Positions 1 through 23,373 of a DNA stretch of 64,000 nucleotides are shown here, one piece after another (position 1 is the first letter of the stretch; each line of letters starts with the position of its first letter). This DNA is from a virus (lineage: Duplodnaviria; Caudoviricetes). The DNA lies in the IMG/VR virus record IMGVR_UViG_3300031867_000042, positions 4,909-68,908 of that record. One strand, given 5' to 3'. A program made the translations under genes and the position numbers. Below the pieces are notes generated by a model that had not been told where the DNA came from, made no database searches, and saw nothing but the letters and a program-made list of their open reading frames with translations.

Positions 1-35
1 GCAGCCTTATATATAGTATTTACAATCTTGCAGGA

Positions 36-103
36 ATACAGTATCATGTAAGGTGACGTCGAGCAAGCAACGCAGTCTTCGACGTCACCTTCAGCTACTG
101 TAT
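36..103. promoter_or_regulatory. Stem-loop upstream of first gene
   Basis: Perfect 13-bp inverted repeat AAGGTGACGTCGA (50-62)/TCGACGTCACCTT (79-91), plus outer 8-bp arms ATACAGTA (36-43)/TACTGTAT (96-103). Confidence 0.6.
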
Positions 104-170
104 CACATCACAGAGCTTATATTTATGCACAGAGTAAATCATATATATTCAATAATAAATTAGGATAAAC

Positions 171-647
171 ATGGAGACAATTTATACAAAAGTAATCGAT
201 GGAGTTCGTCACGGACTCTCTTTCAGCGTCGATTTTAAGACAAAGACTCTTATATTCGACGGCGAGATTATTATAAAGAATGGCGAATACAAAGGGGAAC
301 TTGGTGTGAAGCCTATCACAACATGTACTGGCAAGGATGCTGACGAGGCTATGTTTACATATCTCGAAGCATTGTACCAAGACTACAAGCACTCAATTCC
401 GACTGGCTTGGAGGGGTGCAGCGAGACAAAGAGATATTTCCACGCTCTTTCATCTGAAAGACTTACTGATGACGATATTCGCCGAGGTATTCCACGCCGT
501 CAGGCAAGAGCTATTCTGGAGTTGACACTCCTTTGCTATGCCATTGTCGGTCAGTTCCAGTGGCGAGATGAGTGGGGAACGTATTTCTGGCAAAGCAAAA
601 AGGACCGCGATTTCGTAATCCTTAAAGACTGGTTTAATTTTGATTAA
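171..647 (+). CDS. Hypothetical protein, Bacteroidales phage family
   Basis: 158-aa ORF with AT-rich leader; C-terminal W..W..YFWQS..D.DFVIL..W pattern recalled from Bacteroides phage-like elements. Confidence 0.7.
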   Translation: METIYTKVIDGVRHGLSFSVDFKTKTLIFDGEIIIKNGEYKGELGVKPITTCTGKDADEAMFTYLEALYQDYKHSIPTGLEGCSETKRYFHALSSERLTDDDIRRGIPRRQARAILELTLLCYAIVGQFQWRDEWGTYFWQSKKDRDFVILKDWFNFD

Positions 648-692: not shown

Positions 693-1631
693 ATGGCAAC
701 AAAAAACAACATTTCAGCAAGAATCGAGACTTTGAAGAACGCAGGTATCAACACTGACGGTTTGTTTAAGATTACAGCAAACGGCGTCGAGGTAACAATT
801 AAGGTGAACGCTGGTGGAACTCCGGTGGTAGTTGATGATTTGGAAGAGCAGATTATCTCCGATGGGTATGTCAAGAATACCAAGTTGCATCGCCGTTGGA
901 TTATGGGTCAGATGTTCTGGATGCTGAACTCTCGCGACAGCTATATGGGAACGCTGACAAAGTTCGGTTGTGACTATGCGTGGAGAATGTTATGTGATGA
1001 ACTGAAGACTATCGCACATCTTCAGAAAGCTGACCAGCAGTGTTTCGAGGATCGTGTACGTTGGTTCAATATTGATGTGGTGATTCGAATGATGGAGGAG
1101 TATTTGAGTCAGCTCCGATATACAATCGAGCATAAATTGCCAACGAAGCGTTGCAAGAGAGTTCCATACAAGAAGATTTCTGCGATAGGTAATGTATTCG
1201 TTTCAGATTTGGATAAGAGACTTTACAGTCCTATTATGAATCTTATCCACCGCTGGAAGAAGGTGGCAGCATCTGGATGTGTAGACTATGCGATGCTGCA
1301 CAGTGATGTTGAGAATTTCGTGCGCTGTGCTCGTAATACCAAGGGTAATCTTTACTGCAAGGCAGTTCAGCGTGGTGAGCGTCAGTGCGAGGCATGGCGA
1401 CAGGCTTACGCTGGAACTGGTGCTTTCTATACACTGGACAACATGATTAAGTTCCACGGGTGTCACATCTGGGCTGACAATGGTGAGTGCCTTGACATGT
1501 ATGCTTCACTTGATTATGTTCGCGACGCTGCCAGAGAATACGCTGCGAAGGGTGAAGGCTGGAGAATGTTGGCAATGCTTCGTAAGTGTATCGCCGATAA
1601 CAACTTCAAGTATACTAACAGCGCTTACTAA
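693..1631 (+). CDS. Conserved hypothetical protein, Bacteroidales phage family
   Basis: 312-aa ORF; LHRRWIMGQMF, DRVRWFN and CKRVPYKK motifs recalled from Bacteroides phage-like elements. Confidence 0.8.
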   Translation: MATKNNISARIETLKNAGINTDGLFKITANGVEVTIKVNAGGTPVVVDDLEEQIISDGYVKNTKLHRRWIMGQMFWMLNSRDSYMGTLTKFGCDYAWRMLCDELKTIAHLQKADQQCFEDRVRWFNIDVVIRMMEEYLSQLRYTIEHKLPTKRCKRVPYKKISAIGNVFVSDLDKRLYSPIMNLIHRWKKVAASGCVDYAMLHSDVENFVRCARNTKGNLYCKAVQRGERQCEAWRQAYAGTGAFYTLDNMIKFHGCHIWADNGECLDMYASLDYVRDAAREYAAKGEGWRMLAMLRKCIADNNFKYTNSAY

Positions 1632-1697
1632 TTAGTATTCTGGAGAGTATGCTCCATACTGTACTTGGTGATTTGATTCCTTGTCCCAGCTATATAT

Positions 1698-2943
1698 CGC
1701 GGGACCAGTTTCGGTTCCGCTTCACTTCATCAATGATGAGAGTTACGCCGAATCTCACGGTCCACGCGCATATTAGCTTGGATAAGAGCACATATTTTAA
1801 AAACACATACCGCTTTCACATAGTGCAGTAAACCGATATGAATTGCCATAATTTTTATATATACGGTGCAGTATCGGTAAGATTTGGTGAAAATATTTAA
1901 CAAAGGATTATTAACTCACTGGTCAGCTGGATGTGCTGTATGCCACTCGGTGAAGCGCAATGCCGCTTCTATGTTGGCATAGTCGCTCCTCCCATTCGGC
2001 GGATCTTCCGTCGCATCACTCCTCCAGTCCGCCGACACTTCCCGTCGCTTGTTGCTACATCCTGACGCGGACCTGTTCAAATAATCCCTTGTATCAAAGC
2101 AGTATATTTATGCACATATTCACACGGTCTTGCCAACAATATGATATGGTATTGTAAAATTTGGTGAAAACATTTAACTAAGAGGTTCCATAGCACATCT
2201 CCGCCTTTCTTATCATCAATCCTTGAGTTCAGGATGAGATAAGAACCTCCTATGGATGGAGGAACGGCGAGATGTTCTTCTCCTCTTTATATCACATTAT
2301 TAAACATACATATAAGTTCACTCGGTTTTACACATGGTCGGCGCGGACTAATATATATCTTACAGAATGATTTACGAAACGAGGTCGCGGACAGCCATCA
2401 ACGTAGGAGGCGACTAATAGTACGCCTCCACTATGATGGCGCATACCTGTTTCCATCACATACTTATATTCAAGCGCATTTTCTGTACGGTATATAATGG
2501 TGAGAACACACCTGTTTTACTTGGAAAGATAAATTTATGTCACACCGGCATTTACCAGAGGGACTGAACCGAGTTCTACAGCCCGTTTGTTCACCGGGCT
2601 GCGATACTGGTTCACATTTATCCTTCTGGAAATGTCCGGTTGACTTAATCACCCAGTTATATTTATGTTCCGTATCTTTCTGGTGAACAATTAAGACGGT
2701 GCGGTCTTTGCAACATTTGGTGGATAAATTCAATGGTGCGGCGTTTAACCAGCTTCTCGCAGCCATTACAGCAGGCAATGCCTGCTTCCATTGCGTCTAA
2801 GCTGTTGATCGCCGCTTATATCACATGGTTATATAAAACGCACTAATTCACCCAGTGTTGTATAAATTTCCGATGATTACTTCATCTGACACAAAAAAAT
2901 AACAGTGCCGGAACGGTGAGCGTAGAGAATATCTTGCCGTTCC
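1698..2943 (+). ncRNA. Array of seven structured non-coding elements (candidate sRNAs)
   Basis: Long stems at 1698-1768, 1922-2066, 2195-2275, 2394-2440, 2544-2640, 2738-2815 and 2910-2943, separated by AT-rich linkers; G-U pairs favour the + strand; no convincing CDS. Confidence 0.55.
1877..2178 (+). repeat. 25-nt direct repeat GTAARATTTGGTGAAAAYATTTAAC (1877-1901, 2154-2178)
   Basis: Two copies 23/25 identical, each 15-20 nt before a multibranch structure. Confidence 0.75.
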
Positions 2944-3362: not shown

Positions 3363-3926
3363 ATGGCAAAGATTATAGTTTTATTTGACACACATATCAA
3401 TATCCTTCAGAGTAATGAATGGAATAATATTGACGAGGCTGAAAAGTGGCTGCATACACACGGTTATGTCCTTCCACGTTCTGCATGGCGTTTTCTCCCC
3501 GGTGACGAGTCTGTTAAGATTCACGAATGGAACGCAGATTCTGGAGGCTGCCAAGTAGACATAACCCGTCAGAATTGCGCTAATCTTCATGAAATGGGCG
3601 ACGCTTTGAAAAAAGCGGAATATGATGCGCTGGAGTCCTTTTTGTATCGTAAACAACGGACTCTGTTTGACTTCAGTATCGGTCGAGACGATGACTATGA
3701 CGATTTCGTGATAGTGGTGATGTATGATGACGAAGGAGTTCCACATAACGTCAAAGTCAAAAGCGTACTCTATGGCGACTGGTGTGACGAGAAGATGATA
3801 TTTACCTGTGACGCAGTGGACGGAAGCTTTACATGCGAAGACATTACGCCTTCACGAATCGCCGTCGGACATTTGCCGTATATTCTTGATGCGGTGAAGG
3901 AGTATTGCAAGGAAAGAAATTGGTAA
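3363..3926 (+). CDS. Hypothetical protein
   Basis: ORF 3318-3926; start placed at MAKIIV from gene spacing. Confidence 0.7.
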   Translation: MAKIIVLFDTHINILQSNEWNNIDEAEKWLHTHGYVLPRSAWRFLPGDESVKIHEWNADSGGCQVDITRQNCANLHEMGDALKKAEYDALESFLYRKQRTLFDFSIGRDDDYDDFVIVVMYDDEGVPHNVKVKSVLYGDWCDEKMIFTCDAVDGSFTCEDITPSRIAVGHLPYILDAVKEYCKERNW

Positions 3927-3940
3927 CAACATTCTATTCT

Positions 3941-4019
3941 TTTTACAACATTTTTCTATATGATGGTAATATCTGCTGTCCGTGAGGATGGCAGATATTT
4001 TTAAAAAAATGTTGTAAAA
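3941..4019 (+). terminator. Extended hairpin with GTGA loop
   Basis: 15-bp perfect arms 3941-3955/4005-4019 around stem AATATCTGCTGTCC-GTGA-GGATGGCAGATATT. Confidence 0.6.
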
Positions 4020-4111: not shown

Positions 4112-4139
4112 TCCTTGTTGCTTGTGAAAGTAACAAGGA
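4112..4139 (+). promoter_or_regulatory. GTGA-tetraloop hairpin
   Basis: TCCTTGTTGCTT-GTGA-AAGTAACAAGGA; near-copy at 4695-4720 with compensatory changes. Confidence 0.6.
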
Positions 4140-5626: not shown

Positions 5627-5656
5627 ACAGAACATTCAATTTTAAAACATACACAG

Positions 5657-5788
5657 ATGAAGAAAAAGATTTTCGCATTACTGGTGGTAGCGCTGTCAGT
5701 ATGCACAGTTTCAGCACAGGTTTCGTTCATGGGTATTCCGGTTGACGTTTCAGTTCGTTTCGATAACCTTGATAGTCAACCTAAATAA
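5657..5788 (+). pseudogene. 43-aa ORF: signal peptide plus truncated mature region
   Basis: MKKKIFALLVVALSVCTVSA-QVSFMGIPVD then early stop; not in ORF track, translated by hand. Confidence 0.45.
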
Positions 5789-6039: not shown

Positions 6040-6418
6040 TATCATCCAGCGCGCTGCTACAGATTTTGACATGGAAGTTTATCTGAGCGATAAGATTGGC
6101 GACGCATACGAGTCTGCAATGAATATAATCGATGATAATGTTGACTACGATATGATTAGAACATGCGAAATGTCTAATCATTTCAGTCATCTCTCATGGC
6201 AGGACTCTTGTTTGTTTGATGGTAAATCGTTGGAAGTCGATGGCGAGTTCATTTCTCAGGACCATCAGCACAACAGGTACTTTATTCTTACGGATAACGG
6301 ATGGCAAGAAACTACTTACCCGTATGTTCATAAGTTTGGCGTTGGTTTTGTGGCGGTCCATTCAGTAATCAGTGATTTTGGGCGTAAAATACTTCTCGTT
6401 GCGCCTATAAACGTATAA
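6008..6418 (+). CDS. Hypothetical protein
   Basis: ORF 5927-6418; start placed at MTDKML. Confidence 0.6.
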   Translation: MTDKMLQRALNIIQRAATDFDMEVYLSDKIGDAYESAMNIIDDNVDYDMIRTCEMSNHFSHLSWQDSCLFDGKSLEVDGEFISQDHQHNRYFILTDNGWQETTYPYVHKFGVGFVAVHSVISDFGRKILLVAPINV

Positions 6419-22796: not shown

Positions 22797-22883
22797 CAAA
22801 CTTATATAATAATTATAACTACTTGATAATGAAAAATATGATAATTTTTTCGGAAAAAATTGGAGTTTTTGCTTTATTTTTCA

Positions 22884-22891
22884 TACTTTTG
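22884..22891 (+). promoter_or_regulatory. Sigma-A -7 element
   Basis: TACTTTTG fits TAnnTTTG. Confidence 0.55.
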
Positions 22892-23004
22892 TGATAGCAG
22901 TTTAGTGGAAGCGGTGCATGTTTAATGCGGTCTGTGAAAAGACGGTAGCGCCGCTTTTATTTATGCCAATAACCTTAATAGCACATATTTAATACATAAC
23001 CATA

Positions 23005-23373
23005 ATGAAAAGACTTAATAAAACGAGGTTCAAAGAAATCAACTTGATTTGTGCCAACAAAGAAAACTTGTACACAAAGATAAATGATTTTATCGCTTCC
23101 AAACTGGAAGATGTAGCAAAACTTATCAGAAAAGGTGATTTGCATCTTACATCGGAAGAAATGATGGCTATGCACTATATGGCTAATATGGAAGTTCTTG
23201 ACCTTGAAAGCTCTTTAAGACATACTGGAATGAGTAAGACTGAATTTTATAATGCCATCGCGCATGGATATTTTCCGGCAGGGCACAAAATGGGACGCAG
23301 GCGAGACGCTTCCAGAACATTTTGGTTTAGACAAGAACTTAATGAAGGACTATGGAAATTGACACATAACTAA
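23005..23373 (+). CDS. Putative HTH (AlpA/excisionase-like) regulator
   Basis: LRHTGMSKTEFYNAIAHGYFPAG...FW..ELN. Confidence 0.6.
   Translation: MKRLNKTRFKEINLICANKENLYTKINDFIASKLEDVAKLIRKGDLHLTSEEMMAMHYMANMEVLDLESSLRHTGMSKTEFYNAIAHGYFPAGHKMGRRRDASRTFWFRQELNEGLWKLTHN

What the first reader, a model, noticed from the sequence alone, without database searches (positions are those of the whole stretch)
1698..2943. 1.3 kb non-coding array of seven strongly structured elements in the early region
Seen: GC-rich folded islands separated by AT-rich linkers. E1 1698-1768 is a rod (CGCG-GGACC/GGTCC-CGCG, TTCGG/CCGAA, TCATC/GATGA). E2 1922-2066 is a multibranch (TATGCCA/TGGCATA, GAAGCG/CGCTTC, TCGGCGGA/TCCGCCGA). 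E3 2195-2275 is a three-way junction. E4 2394-2440 is a hairpin. E5 2544-2640 is a 97-nt rod with a CAGCCCG/CGGGCTG tip. E6 2738-2815 is a rod and E7 2910-2943 a hairpin. G-U pairs in E5-E7 would be C-A mismatches on the other strand, which favours a + strand RNA. Several elements are followed by (T/C)ATCACAT (2290, 2454, 2819; also 101), and ACCTGTT recurs (2071, 2445, 2510). The elements are not sequence repeats of each other. Inference: a polycistronic phage sRNA cluster (host-takeover sRNAs, decoy or antitoxin RNAs, protein sponges), or a DNA secondary-structure signal such as an origin, packaging site or injection pause.
Basis: partly seen in the sequence, partly recalled or inferred. Interest (0 to 1): 0.8.

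Follow-up and report, generated by a model that had tools for sequence, protein, structure and literature searches.

The report
Phage UG27 reverse-transcriptase hairpin-RNA array
The 1.3-kb "non-coding" stretch is the template-RNA array of an already published phage reverse-transcriptase system (UG27) whose folded units are copied into short DNA hairpins of unknown purpose; the one new lead here is that two of the nine hairpins carry pieces of a small single-stranded-DNA phage (Microviridae) genome.

Summary
Its two helper genes are window 171-647 and 693-1631. E1-E6 are the central hairpins of six tandem 162-303-nt units. Three more units lie between the RT and the first helper gene.

Each unit has a basal hairpin, a 4-5-bp pseudoknot at a fixed offset, a two-tier lower stem, a UUYA motif and an AUC-N7-UA.A motif. 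This matches the UG27 ncRNA arrays described in PMC9226505 (2022) and bioRxiv 10.64898/2026.09.22.753630 (Sept 2026). In that preprint's systems each central hairpin is reverse-transcribed into a short ssDNA hairpin. E7 is not a unit.

This scan has already noted UG27 arrays on other DNA (169 notes in at least 71 genomes). The locus is therefore a new member of a known kind.

One new lead: the only significant matches of this array in 2.3 Gb of phage records are two segments of one Microviridae genome. Both lie in the 3' arm of a central hairpin (E1, E5) and both end at the predicted cDNA start. Four other arrays showed nothing similar.

The parts
1..150 (+). ncRNA unit C, the third unit between the RT and the sORF. 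It starts 5 nt before the window. Central hairpin 26-101, start motif ATC at 107, pseudoknot 3' strand at 126-130.
   Evidence: Units A and B lie upstream of the window at L002:4549-4710 and L002:4723-4900. The RT gene is L002:3281-4543.
171..647 (+). Small accessory protein of UG27 systems (sORF; cluster 346).
   Evidence: PADLOC RTas346, E 9.7e-42, covering 2-145 of 147 profile positions. No Pfam or PHROG family.
693..1631 (+). Large accessory protein of UG27 systems (bORF; cluster 337).
   Evidence: PADLOC RTas337, E 3.7e-83, covering 18-307 of 316 profile positions.
1641..1830 (+). Unit E1, a variant unit. Central hairpin 1677-1786. It has AGC (1787) in place of AUC and UUUGA in place of UUYA.
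   Evidence: The CM gives 143.6 bits, but E1 is a training member.
1832..2134 (+). Unit E2, with an unusually long (191-nt) branched central element at 1902-2092. ATC at 2093.
   Evidence: Found out of sample by CM R1 at E 5e-4. Its fold z-score is only -1.8 to -2.4.
2137..2331 (+). Unit E3. Central hairpin 2179-2290, ATC at 2291.
2336..2497 (+). Unit E4. Central hairpin 2376-2454, ATC at 2455.
2499..2697 (+). Unit E5. Central hairpin 2539-2647, ATC at 2648. Its inner stem has fully covaried (GGAAAGATA/TATCTTTCT).
   Evidence: The CM gives only E 0.41.
2693..2860 (+). Unit E6. Central hairpin 2734-2819, ATC at 2820. It shares 5 nt with the end of E5.
2872..2943 (+). Two trailing hairpins, 2872-2886 and E7 at 2910-2943. 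They have no unit scaffold, no ATC motif and no T-run. Role unknown: possibly the 3' end of the array transcript or the leader of the gene at 2966.
1747..1791 (+). Segment of the E1 3' arm that matches Microviridae sp. MG945216.1 positions 5649-5692 (40 of 45).
2612..2648 (+). Segment of the E5 3' arm that matches Microviridae sp. MG945216.1 positions 6228-6264 (35 of 37, with 29 nt exact).

Best explanation
The region is the downstream part of the ncRNA template array of a complete phage-borne UG27 reverse-transcriptase system.

The gene order is RT, then units A, B and C, then sORF, then bORF, then units E1 to E6. Everything is on the + strand.

Each unit folds into a scaffold that presents an asymmetric internal loop. 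The scaffold consists of:
- a basal hairpin whose loop forms a 4-5-bp pseudoknot with nucleotides 18-23 after the AUC;
- an outer stem, a bulge, and an inner stem (typically GGUGAA/UUCAC);
- UUYA on the 5' side of the loop;
- a 25-27-nt 3' side that starts with AUC (19 nt in unit B).

By homology with the experimentally tested systems, the RT acts together with both accessory proteins. It starts at the AUC and copies the central hairpin back to the UUYA. Each unit should then give one ssDNA of about 75-190 nt that folds into its own hairpin.

Shown here: the protein families, the unit architecture, covariation among the units, and the presence of arrays in relatives.

Inferred: transcription of the array, cDNA synthesis in this phage, and any biological role. 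My best guess at the role is that the DNA hairpins act early in infection as ligands or decoys in conflicts with the host or with rival viruses.
For: Proteins. The RT is a full-length RT_UG27 match at E 1.6e-192, and Pfam RVT_1 matches. The YSDD active-site motif is readable at L002:3956-3967. The neighbouring genes are RTas346 and RTas337.

Tiling. Nine units tile both non-coding stretches back to back.

Structure. On five units the named structure is 92.2% paired, against 71.6% in shuffles (0 of 500 reach it). 18 of 22 pairs have changes on both sides. Sliding the partners drops pairing to 25-54%. All nine units checked programmatically have the pseudoknot and the inner stem; eight have the basal hairpin and eight the outer stem.

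Pseudoknot. It sits at a fixed offset of 18-19 nt from the AUC. A cognate 5-mer is found in 8 of 9 units, against 7 of 72 non-cognate combinations, and other offsets give about zero.

Motif. ATC-N7-TA.A is strongly enriched and found on the + strand only within the locus.

Relatives. 79 of 80 related IMG/VR loci have runs of the motif at unit spacing, in nearly all of them directly after the RT. The canonical ATC-N7-TA.AG occurs 542 times on the RT strand and 64 times on the opposite strand.

cDNA folding. Eight of the nine predicted cDNA strands fold as DNA hairpins with z -4.3 to -8.5.

Literature. UG27 arrays, the AUC and UUYA boundaries, and the requirement for all three proteins are in bioRxiv 10.64898/2026.09.22.753630. 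The earlier ncRNA prediction is in PMC9226505.
Against: - No expression or cDNA data exist for this phage.
- The published 3' motif is AUC-N7-UANAG, but none of the nine units here has the final G. They read UAUAU, UAAAC, UAAAA or UACAA.
- E1 has AGC and UUUGA in place of the two boundary motifs.
- Units are 156-303 nt, against published modes of 135, 149 and 167 nt. Predicted cDNAs of up to 191 nt exceed the published 50-100 nt.
- A covariance model built from five local units finds no unit in the 80 related loci. The structural kinship with relatives therefore rests on motifs, on architecture read by eye and on protein homology.
- I derived the tested structure from these same sequences.
Confidence: 0.88

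Rival explanations
1. The units act as RNAs only, for example as sRNAs, protein sponges or antitoxin-like RNAs. Their position next to the RT is incidental, or the RT uses only the three units directly after it.
For: The folds are strong as RNA. The lower stems contain G-U pairs, which fits an RNA-level structure. The terminal G of the published UANAG motif is absent.
Against: The six downstream units share the whole scaffold with the three RT-proximal units. That includes the AUC position and the pseudoknot offset. In the tested homologous systems every unit of the array gave a cDNA, and some loci carry units in neighbouring intergenic regions.
Confidence: 0.06
2. The array is partly decayed. 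E1 (AGC, UUUGA) and E2 (191-nt branched insert) may no longer be functional templates and may simply persist in the locus.
For: Both boundary motifs are altered in E1. E2's central element folds hardly better than shuffles, with z -1.8 to -2.4.
Against: E1 keeps a perfect basal hairpin, pseudoknot and 8-bp outer stem, and its central hairpin folds strongly with z about -4.3 to -5.6. E2 keeps all scaffold elements and the ATC.
Confidence: 0.25
3. The hairpins are DNA-level signals, such as a replication origin, a packaging site or an injection pause, or they are a stack of transcription terminators.
For: Both strands fold about equally well.
Against: The motifs are strand-specific. Covariation includes G-U pairs and a pseudoknot, which make sense only for a single + strand. 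No T-runs follow the hairpins, whereas the phage's real terminators have them, for example at 4112-4139. The same arrays travel with UG27 genes in unrelated phages.
Confidence: 0.02

Closest known systems
UG27 reverse-transcriptase systems with variable ncRNA arrays (class 2 UG/Abi RTs; Mestre et al. 2022, PMC9226505; bioRxiv 10.64898/2026.09.22.753630, Sept 2026)
   Same: - The same three proteins (RT, sORF, bORF).
- Tandem, sequence-diverse units on the RT strand.
- A basal hairpin plus a pseudoknot.
- An asymmetric internal loop with UUYA on one side and AUC-N7-UA.A on the other, bracketing a variable central hairpin.
- A phage of the gut or rumen Bacteroidales world. The RT is 57% identical to that of Alistipes putredinis DSM 17216, a species whose UG27 system was tested in the preprint.
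   Different: - The terminal G of UANAG is missing in all nine units.
- ATCACAT is locally conserved.
- There is an extra outer stem beyond a bulge.
- Units are longer (156-303 nt).
- The array is split 3 + 6 around the accessory genes.
- One unit has AGC and UUUGA.
[quoted passage not shown]
Retrons (msr-msd RNA plus RT giving multicopy ssDNA)
   Same: An RT copies a structured part of an adjacent ncRNA into a short ssDNA hairpin.
   Different: - The RT belongs to the UG27 clade. The best retron profile gives E 1.7e-9, against 1.6e-192 for UG27.
- There are many different templates per locus.
- Two accessory proteins are required.
- No a1/a2 inverted repeats and no branching G were identified.
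- The system is carried by a lytic-looking phage rather than a defence island.
DRT2 and DRT9 (UG2 and UG28), class 2/3 UG RTs with a single structured ncRNA template
   Same: A UG-family RT paired with a neighbouring structured template RNA.
   Different: Those systems make long concatemeric or homopolymeric cDNA from one template and act in host defence. UG27 makes many short discrete hairpins and shows no defence-island association.
CRISPR arrays (an analogy only)
   Same: A modular array with a conserved scaffold and hypervariable inserts. Unit gain and loss between relatives is reported in the preprint. Here two inserts match another virus.
   Different: No direct repeats of the CRISPR type and no cas genes. 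The inserts are self-complementary hairpins. The match to a foreign virus is seen in only one array of the five tested.

Membership tests
UG27 RT system | A reverse transcriptase of the UG27 clade with an intact YSDD active site. | tested here: met
   RT_UG27 at E 1.6e-192, covering 2-420 of 420 profile positions. The next best profile is UG26 at 1.7e-40. RVT_1 matches at 7.7e-23. The residues R-Y-S-D-D-I-V can be read at L002:3953-3973.
UG27 RT system | The two accessory genes (cluster 346 sORF and cluster 337 bORF) lie next to the RT. | tested here: met
   RTas346 at E 9.7e-42 (window 171-647) and RTas337 at E 3.7e-83 (window 693-1631), both on the same strand as the RT.
UG27 RT system | A tandem array of structure-conserved, sequence-diverse ncRNA units on the RT strand. 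| tested here: met
   Nine units tile the two intergenic regions. Mean column identity among units is 35%. Structure is supported at 92.2% paired, with 18 of 22 pairs covarying.
UG27 RT system | A basal hairpin and a pseudoknot in each unit. | tested here: met
   The pseudoknot is present in 9 of 9 units, with 5 Watson-Crick pairs in eight units and 4 in E4. It uses seven different sequences and sits at an offset of 18-19 nt from the AUC. The basal hairpin is present in 8 of 9 units and is unclear in unit B.
UG27 RT system | A UUYA motif at the 5' foot of the central hairpin. | tested here: met
   Present in 8 of 9 units as TTTA or TTCA. E1 has TTTGA instead.
UG27 RT system | An AUC-N7-UANAG motif at the 3' foot of the central hairpin, where reverse transcription starts. 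| tested here: inconclusive
   AUC is present in 8 of 9 units (AGC in E1), and seven of them show AUC-N7-UA.A (unit C needs N8). The final G is absent in 9 of 9 units. The own genome has no ATC-N7-TA.AG inside the locus, whereas relatives have 542 on the RT strand.
UG27 RT system | Unit length of about 135-167 nt. | tested here: inconclusive
   By my boundaries, which include the basal hairpin and an outer stem, the units are 156-199 nt, with E2 at 303 nt.
UG27 RT system | RT-dependent short ssDNA copied from each central hairpin. | not testable with these tools
   This needs strand-specific ssDNA sequencing.
Retron | A retron-clade RT with an msr-msd RNA (a1/a2 repeats and a branching G). | tested here: not met
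   The best retron RT profile (Ec107-like) gives E 1.7e-9, against UG27 at 1.6e-192. No Rfam retron or other family matches.
Any Rfam RNA family, or tRNA | A match at the family's gathering score, or a cloverleaf fold. | tested here: not met
   0 Rfam matches in the 64-kb window. 0 tRNA or tmRNA genes.

The most novel reading that the evidence does not exclude
The template arms of at least some UG27 units are copies of another virus's genome.

In this phage, the first 37-45 nt that the RT would copy in units E5 and E1 are 35/37 and 40/45 identical to two segments of one Microviridae genome (MG945216.1). The resulting cDNA 5' halves would be antisense to that virus's packaged + strand. The cDNA stems would mimic its duplex form.

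If this is functional, UG27 would be a programmable, spacer-like weapon or decoy that a large phage uses against co-infecting ssDNA phages.

Two less novel readings of the same match remain open. The microvirus may have captured UG27 cDNA or phage DNA. Alternatively, the UNVERIFIED microvirus assembly may be chimeric.
Probability: 0.13. Interest if true: 0.85.

Novelty: new member of a known kind. Interest (0 to 1): 0.38.

Why it matters
The locus itself is another instance of a published system, so it adds only local variation: a motif without the terminal G, an AGC unit, a 191-nt template, and a 3 + 6 split array.

What could matter is the open question stated in the 2026 preprint, namely what the cDNA hairpins are for. 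[quoted passage not shown] Here two of nine template arms match one microvirus. Both matches end at the cDNA start, and together they are far beyond chance.

If the pattern recurs in a systematic arm-by-arm search against ssDNA-virus catalogues, it would point to virus-versus-virus targeting, or to cDNA exchange between viruses. If it does not recur, it remains a curiosity of one phage or of one assembly.

Tried and rejected
Other readings of the region:
- Coding under other genetic codes (TGA=W, TAG=Q): no long frame opens.
- tRNAs or degenerate tRNAs: none.
- Rfam families: none.
- Terminator stack: no T-runs follow the hairpins.

Attempts to reach close relatives:
- Searches with single proteins in viral or metagenome contigs returned nothing.
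The 99%, 86% and 70% RT relatives seen could therefore not be fetched.
- The pattern ATTTGGTGAAAAYATTTAAC gave three single matches, which I did not inspect.

Models and crude tests:
- Covariance model R1, built from five local units, recovers E2 (E 5e-4) and weakly E5 (E 0.41). It misses A and C and finds nothing in the 80 related loci. It is too local to serve as a family model.
- An automatic test for UUYA...AUC bracketing is enriched in relatives (69% against 20% at random sites) but picks wrong sites in my own units.
- A duplex-energy test of the pseudoknot using 32-nt unit heads was uninformative. It was replaced by the fixed-offset test.
The exception is a 12-nt word shared by units A and B.

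Generality of the microvirus match:
- Four other UG27 arrays (33 units) gave no phage-database match at E <= 0.01.
- The microvirus has no match in the 80 related loci.
- The 23-nt core is absent from IMG/VR, JGI metagenomes and GTDB genomes.
- A 17-mer from E1 hit one unrelated contig by chance.
- No close relative of the microvirus was found in IMG/VR.
- The array has no match in 7.3 Gb of plasmids.
- It has only chance-level hits in 401 Bacteroidales genomes, at no more than 47 bits and in AT-rich junctions.
- The microvirus region is not a UG27 array. It has no unit motifs, no CM hit and weak folding.

Full report
WHAT IS THERE

The window is bases 4909-68908 of a 68.9-kb linear IMG/VR phage contig. 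Between the ORF that ends at 1631 and the ORF that starts at 2966 there is no frame longer than 102 aa. No long frame opens under table 4 or with TAG=Q. There are no tRNAs and no Rfam family at gathering score.

The z-scores are E1 -4.3, E3 -4.0, E4 -7.3, E5 -7.3, E6 -5.5 and E7 -4.7. E2 as delimited reaches only -1.8. The - strand folds about as well.

A sliding scan of the whole contig puts the E5 window first or second on both strands. It also shows two more strong islands just upstream of the window.

The 4.9 kb upstream of the window (L002) ends with a 420-438-aa ORF. This ORF is a full-length UG27 reverse transcriptase:
- PADLOC RT_UG27 at E 1.6e-192, and Pfam RVT_1.
- The YSDD motif is readable.

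The two ORFs at the start of the window are the catalogued UG27 partners. Window 171-647 is RTas346 at E 9.7e-42. Window 693-1631 is RTas337 at E 3.7e-83.

Mestre et al. 2022 (PMC9226505) defined this trio in gut phages and predicted an ncRNA next to the RT. A September 2026 preprint (bioRxiv 10.64898/2026.09.22.753630) reports the following:
- UG27 loci carry variable arrays of structure-conserved, sequence-diverse units with a basal hairpin and a pseudoknot.
- Copying starts at the AUC of an AUC-N7-UANAG motif and stops after a UUYA motif.
- The RT and both accessory proteins are required.
- The role of the cDNAs is unknown.

ANATOMY OF THIS ARRAY

Nine units tile the two non-coding stretches back to back. 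In window coordinates they are:

| Unit | Coordinates |
|---|---|
| A | -359..-198 |
| B | -185..-8 |
| C | -5..150 |
| (sORF and bORF) | 171-647 and 693-1631 |
| E1 | 1641-1830 |
| E2 | 1832-2134 |
| E3 | 2137-2331 |
| E4 | 2336-2497 |
| E5 | 2499-2697 |
| E6 | 2693-2860 |

Once extended, these abut the flanking motifs and measure 75-191 nt.

Each unit reads, from 5' to 3':
1. a basal hairpin;
2. the outer stem, 5' strand;
3. a bulge;
4. the inner stem, 5' strand (GGTGAA in several units);
5. (A)TTYA;
6. the central hairpin;
7. ATC (usually ATCACAT), then TA.A after seven bases, within a 25-27-nt single-stranded 3' side (19 nt in unit B);
8. the inner stem, 3' strand (TTCAC);
9. a bulge (CGG);
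10. the outer stem, 3' strand.

The 'promoter-like' ATTTGGTGAAAAYATTTAAC that precedes E2 and E3 is the inner stem plus the UUYA.

The loop of the basal hairpin pairs with the five bases that lie 18-19 nt after the A of ATC. This holds in all nine units with seven different sequences: GTCCG, GTGCG, GTGCA, GTATG, ATATG, GCGC and GAACA. A cognate complementary 5-mer is found in 8 of 9 units, against 7 of 72 non-cognate combinations. It appears only at offsets 18 and 19.

On the MAFFT alignment of five units, the named structure (basal hairpin, pseudoknot and both lower stems) gives these figures:
- 92.2% of cells paired, against 71.6% in shuffles (0 of 500 shuffles reach it).
- 18 of 22 pairs have changes on both sides.
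- Pairing falls to 25-54% when the partners are slid.

One caveat applies: I derived the structure from these same sequences.

ATC-N7-TA.A occurs seven times on the + strand inside the locus, against 14 in the remaining ~65 kb. This motif orientation, the gene orientation and the G-U pairs fix the + strand as the RNA strand.

DEVIATIONS FROM THE PUBLISHED UNIT

- None of the nine units has the terminal G of the published UANAG.
- E1 has AGC for AUC and UUUGA for UUYA, yet keeps a perfect scaffold.
- E2 carries a 191-nt branched insert that folds little better than shuffles.
- E7 (2910-2943) and a small hairpin at 2872-2886 have no scaffold, no ATC and no T-run, so they are not units.

Eight of the nine predicted cDNA strands fold as DNA hairpins with z -4.3 to -8.5.

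RELATIVES

The RT has thousands of homologues. Eighty IMG/VR loci with 56-59% identical RTs were fetched.
- 79 of the 80 have runs of the motif at unit spacing, in nearly all of them starting right after the RT.
- The canonical ATC-N7-TA.AG occurs 542 times on the RT strand and 64 times on the other strand.
- A relative read by eye shows the same plan: a basal hairpin, a lower stem, UUUAA, and a 25-nt 3' loop starting with AUC.

The arrays share no sequence with ours. My local covariance model does not find their units. This agrees with the preprint's remark that one model does not cover the family.

Bacterial genomes that carry related RTs are mostly Bacteroidales, several of them from ruminants. 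They include Alistipes putredinis DSM 17216 and Phocaeicola coprophilus DSM 18228, species that the preprint names among the UG27 systems it studied.

This scan has already reported UG27 arrays many times on other DNA.

THE ONE THING THAT IS NOT IN THE LITERATURE I COULD READ

A blastn search of the array against 50,697 phage records (2.3 Gb) gives one significant record, even with the limit relaxed to E <= 2. That record is Microviridae sp. MG945216.1 from yak faeces, hit in two pieces.

A blastn of the whole 68.9-kb contig against that 6.3-kb genome gives exactly two hits:

| Window | Unit and arm | Microvirus | Identity | E-value |
|---|---|---|---|---|
| 2612-2648 | E5, 3' arm | 6228-6264 | 35/37, 29 exact | 8e-10 |
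| 1747-1791 | E1, 3' arm | 5649-5692 | 40/45 | 1e-8 |

Features of the two hits:
- Both are +/+.
- Both lie in the 3' arm of a central hairpin.
- Both end at the predicted cDNA start: the A of ATC at 2648, and the AG of AGC at 1787-1788.
- The cDNA 5' halves would therefore be antisense to the microvirus coding strand. By established knowledge of Microviridae, that is also the packaged strand.

For scale, the same array has no match at E <= 1 in 7.3 Gb of plasmids. In 401 Bacteroidales genomes the best hits reach 47 bits and lie in AT-rich junctions.

The microvirus segments lie in a 728-nt orphan region between VP2 and VP4:
- It has no nucleotide or protein homologue in other phage records, apart from one weak 67-nt match.
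- It carries no UG27 motifs.
- It folds weakly.

Against generality:
- Four other arrays (33 units) have no phage-database match.
- The preprint's authors saw no obvious complementarity.
- The core sequence is absent from IMG/VR, JGI metagenomes and GTDB genomes.

The direction of transfer cannot be settled here. Three possibilities remain open:
- the array took the segments from the microvirus;
- the microvirus captured cDNA or phage DNA;
- the UNVERIFIED microvirus record is a chimeric assembly.

VERDICT

It is, however, the template array of a known UG27 reverse-transcriptase system, not a free sRNA cluster or a DNA signal.

It is a new member of a known kind, with local motif variants. The microvirus matches are a statistically solid but isolated lead on the unsolved function.

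Noticed in passing
window 1747-1791 and 2612-2648; L087 (MG945216.1) 5649-5692 and 6228-6264: The only significant similarity of the array in 2.3 Gb of phage records is to two segments of one Microviridae genome. Both segments lie in the 3' arm of a central hairpin (E1, E5) and both end at the predicted cDNA start. E1 and E5 are also the two units that deviate most from the local scaffold consensus.
   Followed up: partly
window 22847-23021: There is a weak covariance-model hit (12.4 bits, E 0.43 over the genome) in an intergenic region 20 kb away. It consists of a hairpin followed by AGCACATATTTAATA, which resembles E1's variant start motif AGCACATATTTTAAAA. It may be a stray degenerate unit or chance.
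   Followed up: partly
L002:4593-4667 and L002:4760-4858 (units A and B, upstream of the window): The apical stems of units A and B share a 12-nt word (AGACTCAGGAGA / TCTCCTGAGTCT) in opposite orientation. No other word sharing among the hairpins exceeds random expectation.
   Followed up: partly
The copies sit at different positions within their units: the 3' arms of E2 and E4, and the start of E5's outer stem. Unexplained.
   Followed up: no
window 3966-3995 and 4112-4139: Canonical intrinsic terminators (a GC-containing hairpin followed by a T-run) follow the gene that ends at 3926. This shows what real terminators of this phage look like, and the array hairpins lack the T-run.
   Followed up: partly
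L002:3227-4543: The longest RT frame is 438 aa, but nearly all homologues are about 420 aa and align from the ATG at L002:3281. The real start is probably that ATG.
   Followed up: partly
(protein clusters of the RT): Near-identical RTs sit on contigs of up to 109 kb, and a 70%-identical cluster sits on contigs of about 110 kb. The full phage genome is therefore probably about 107-110 kb, and this 68.9-kb record is a fragment.
   Followed up: no
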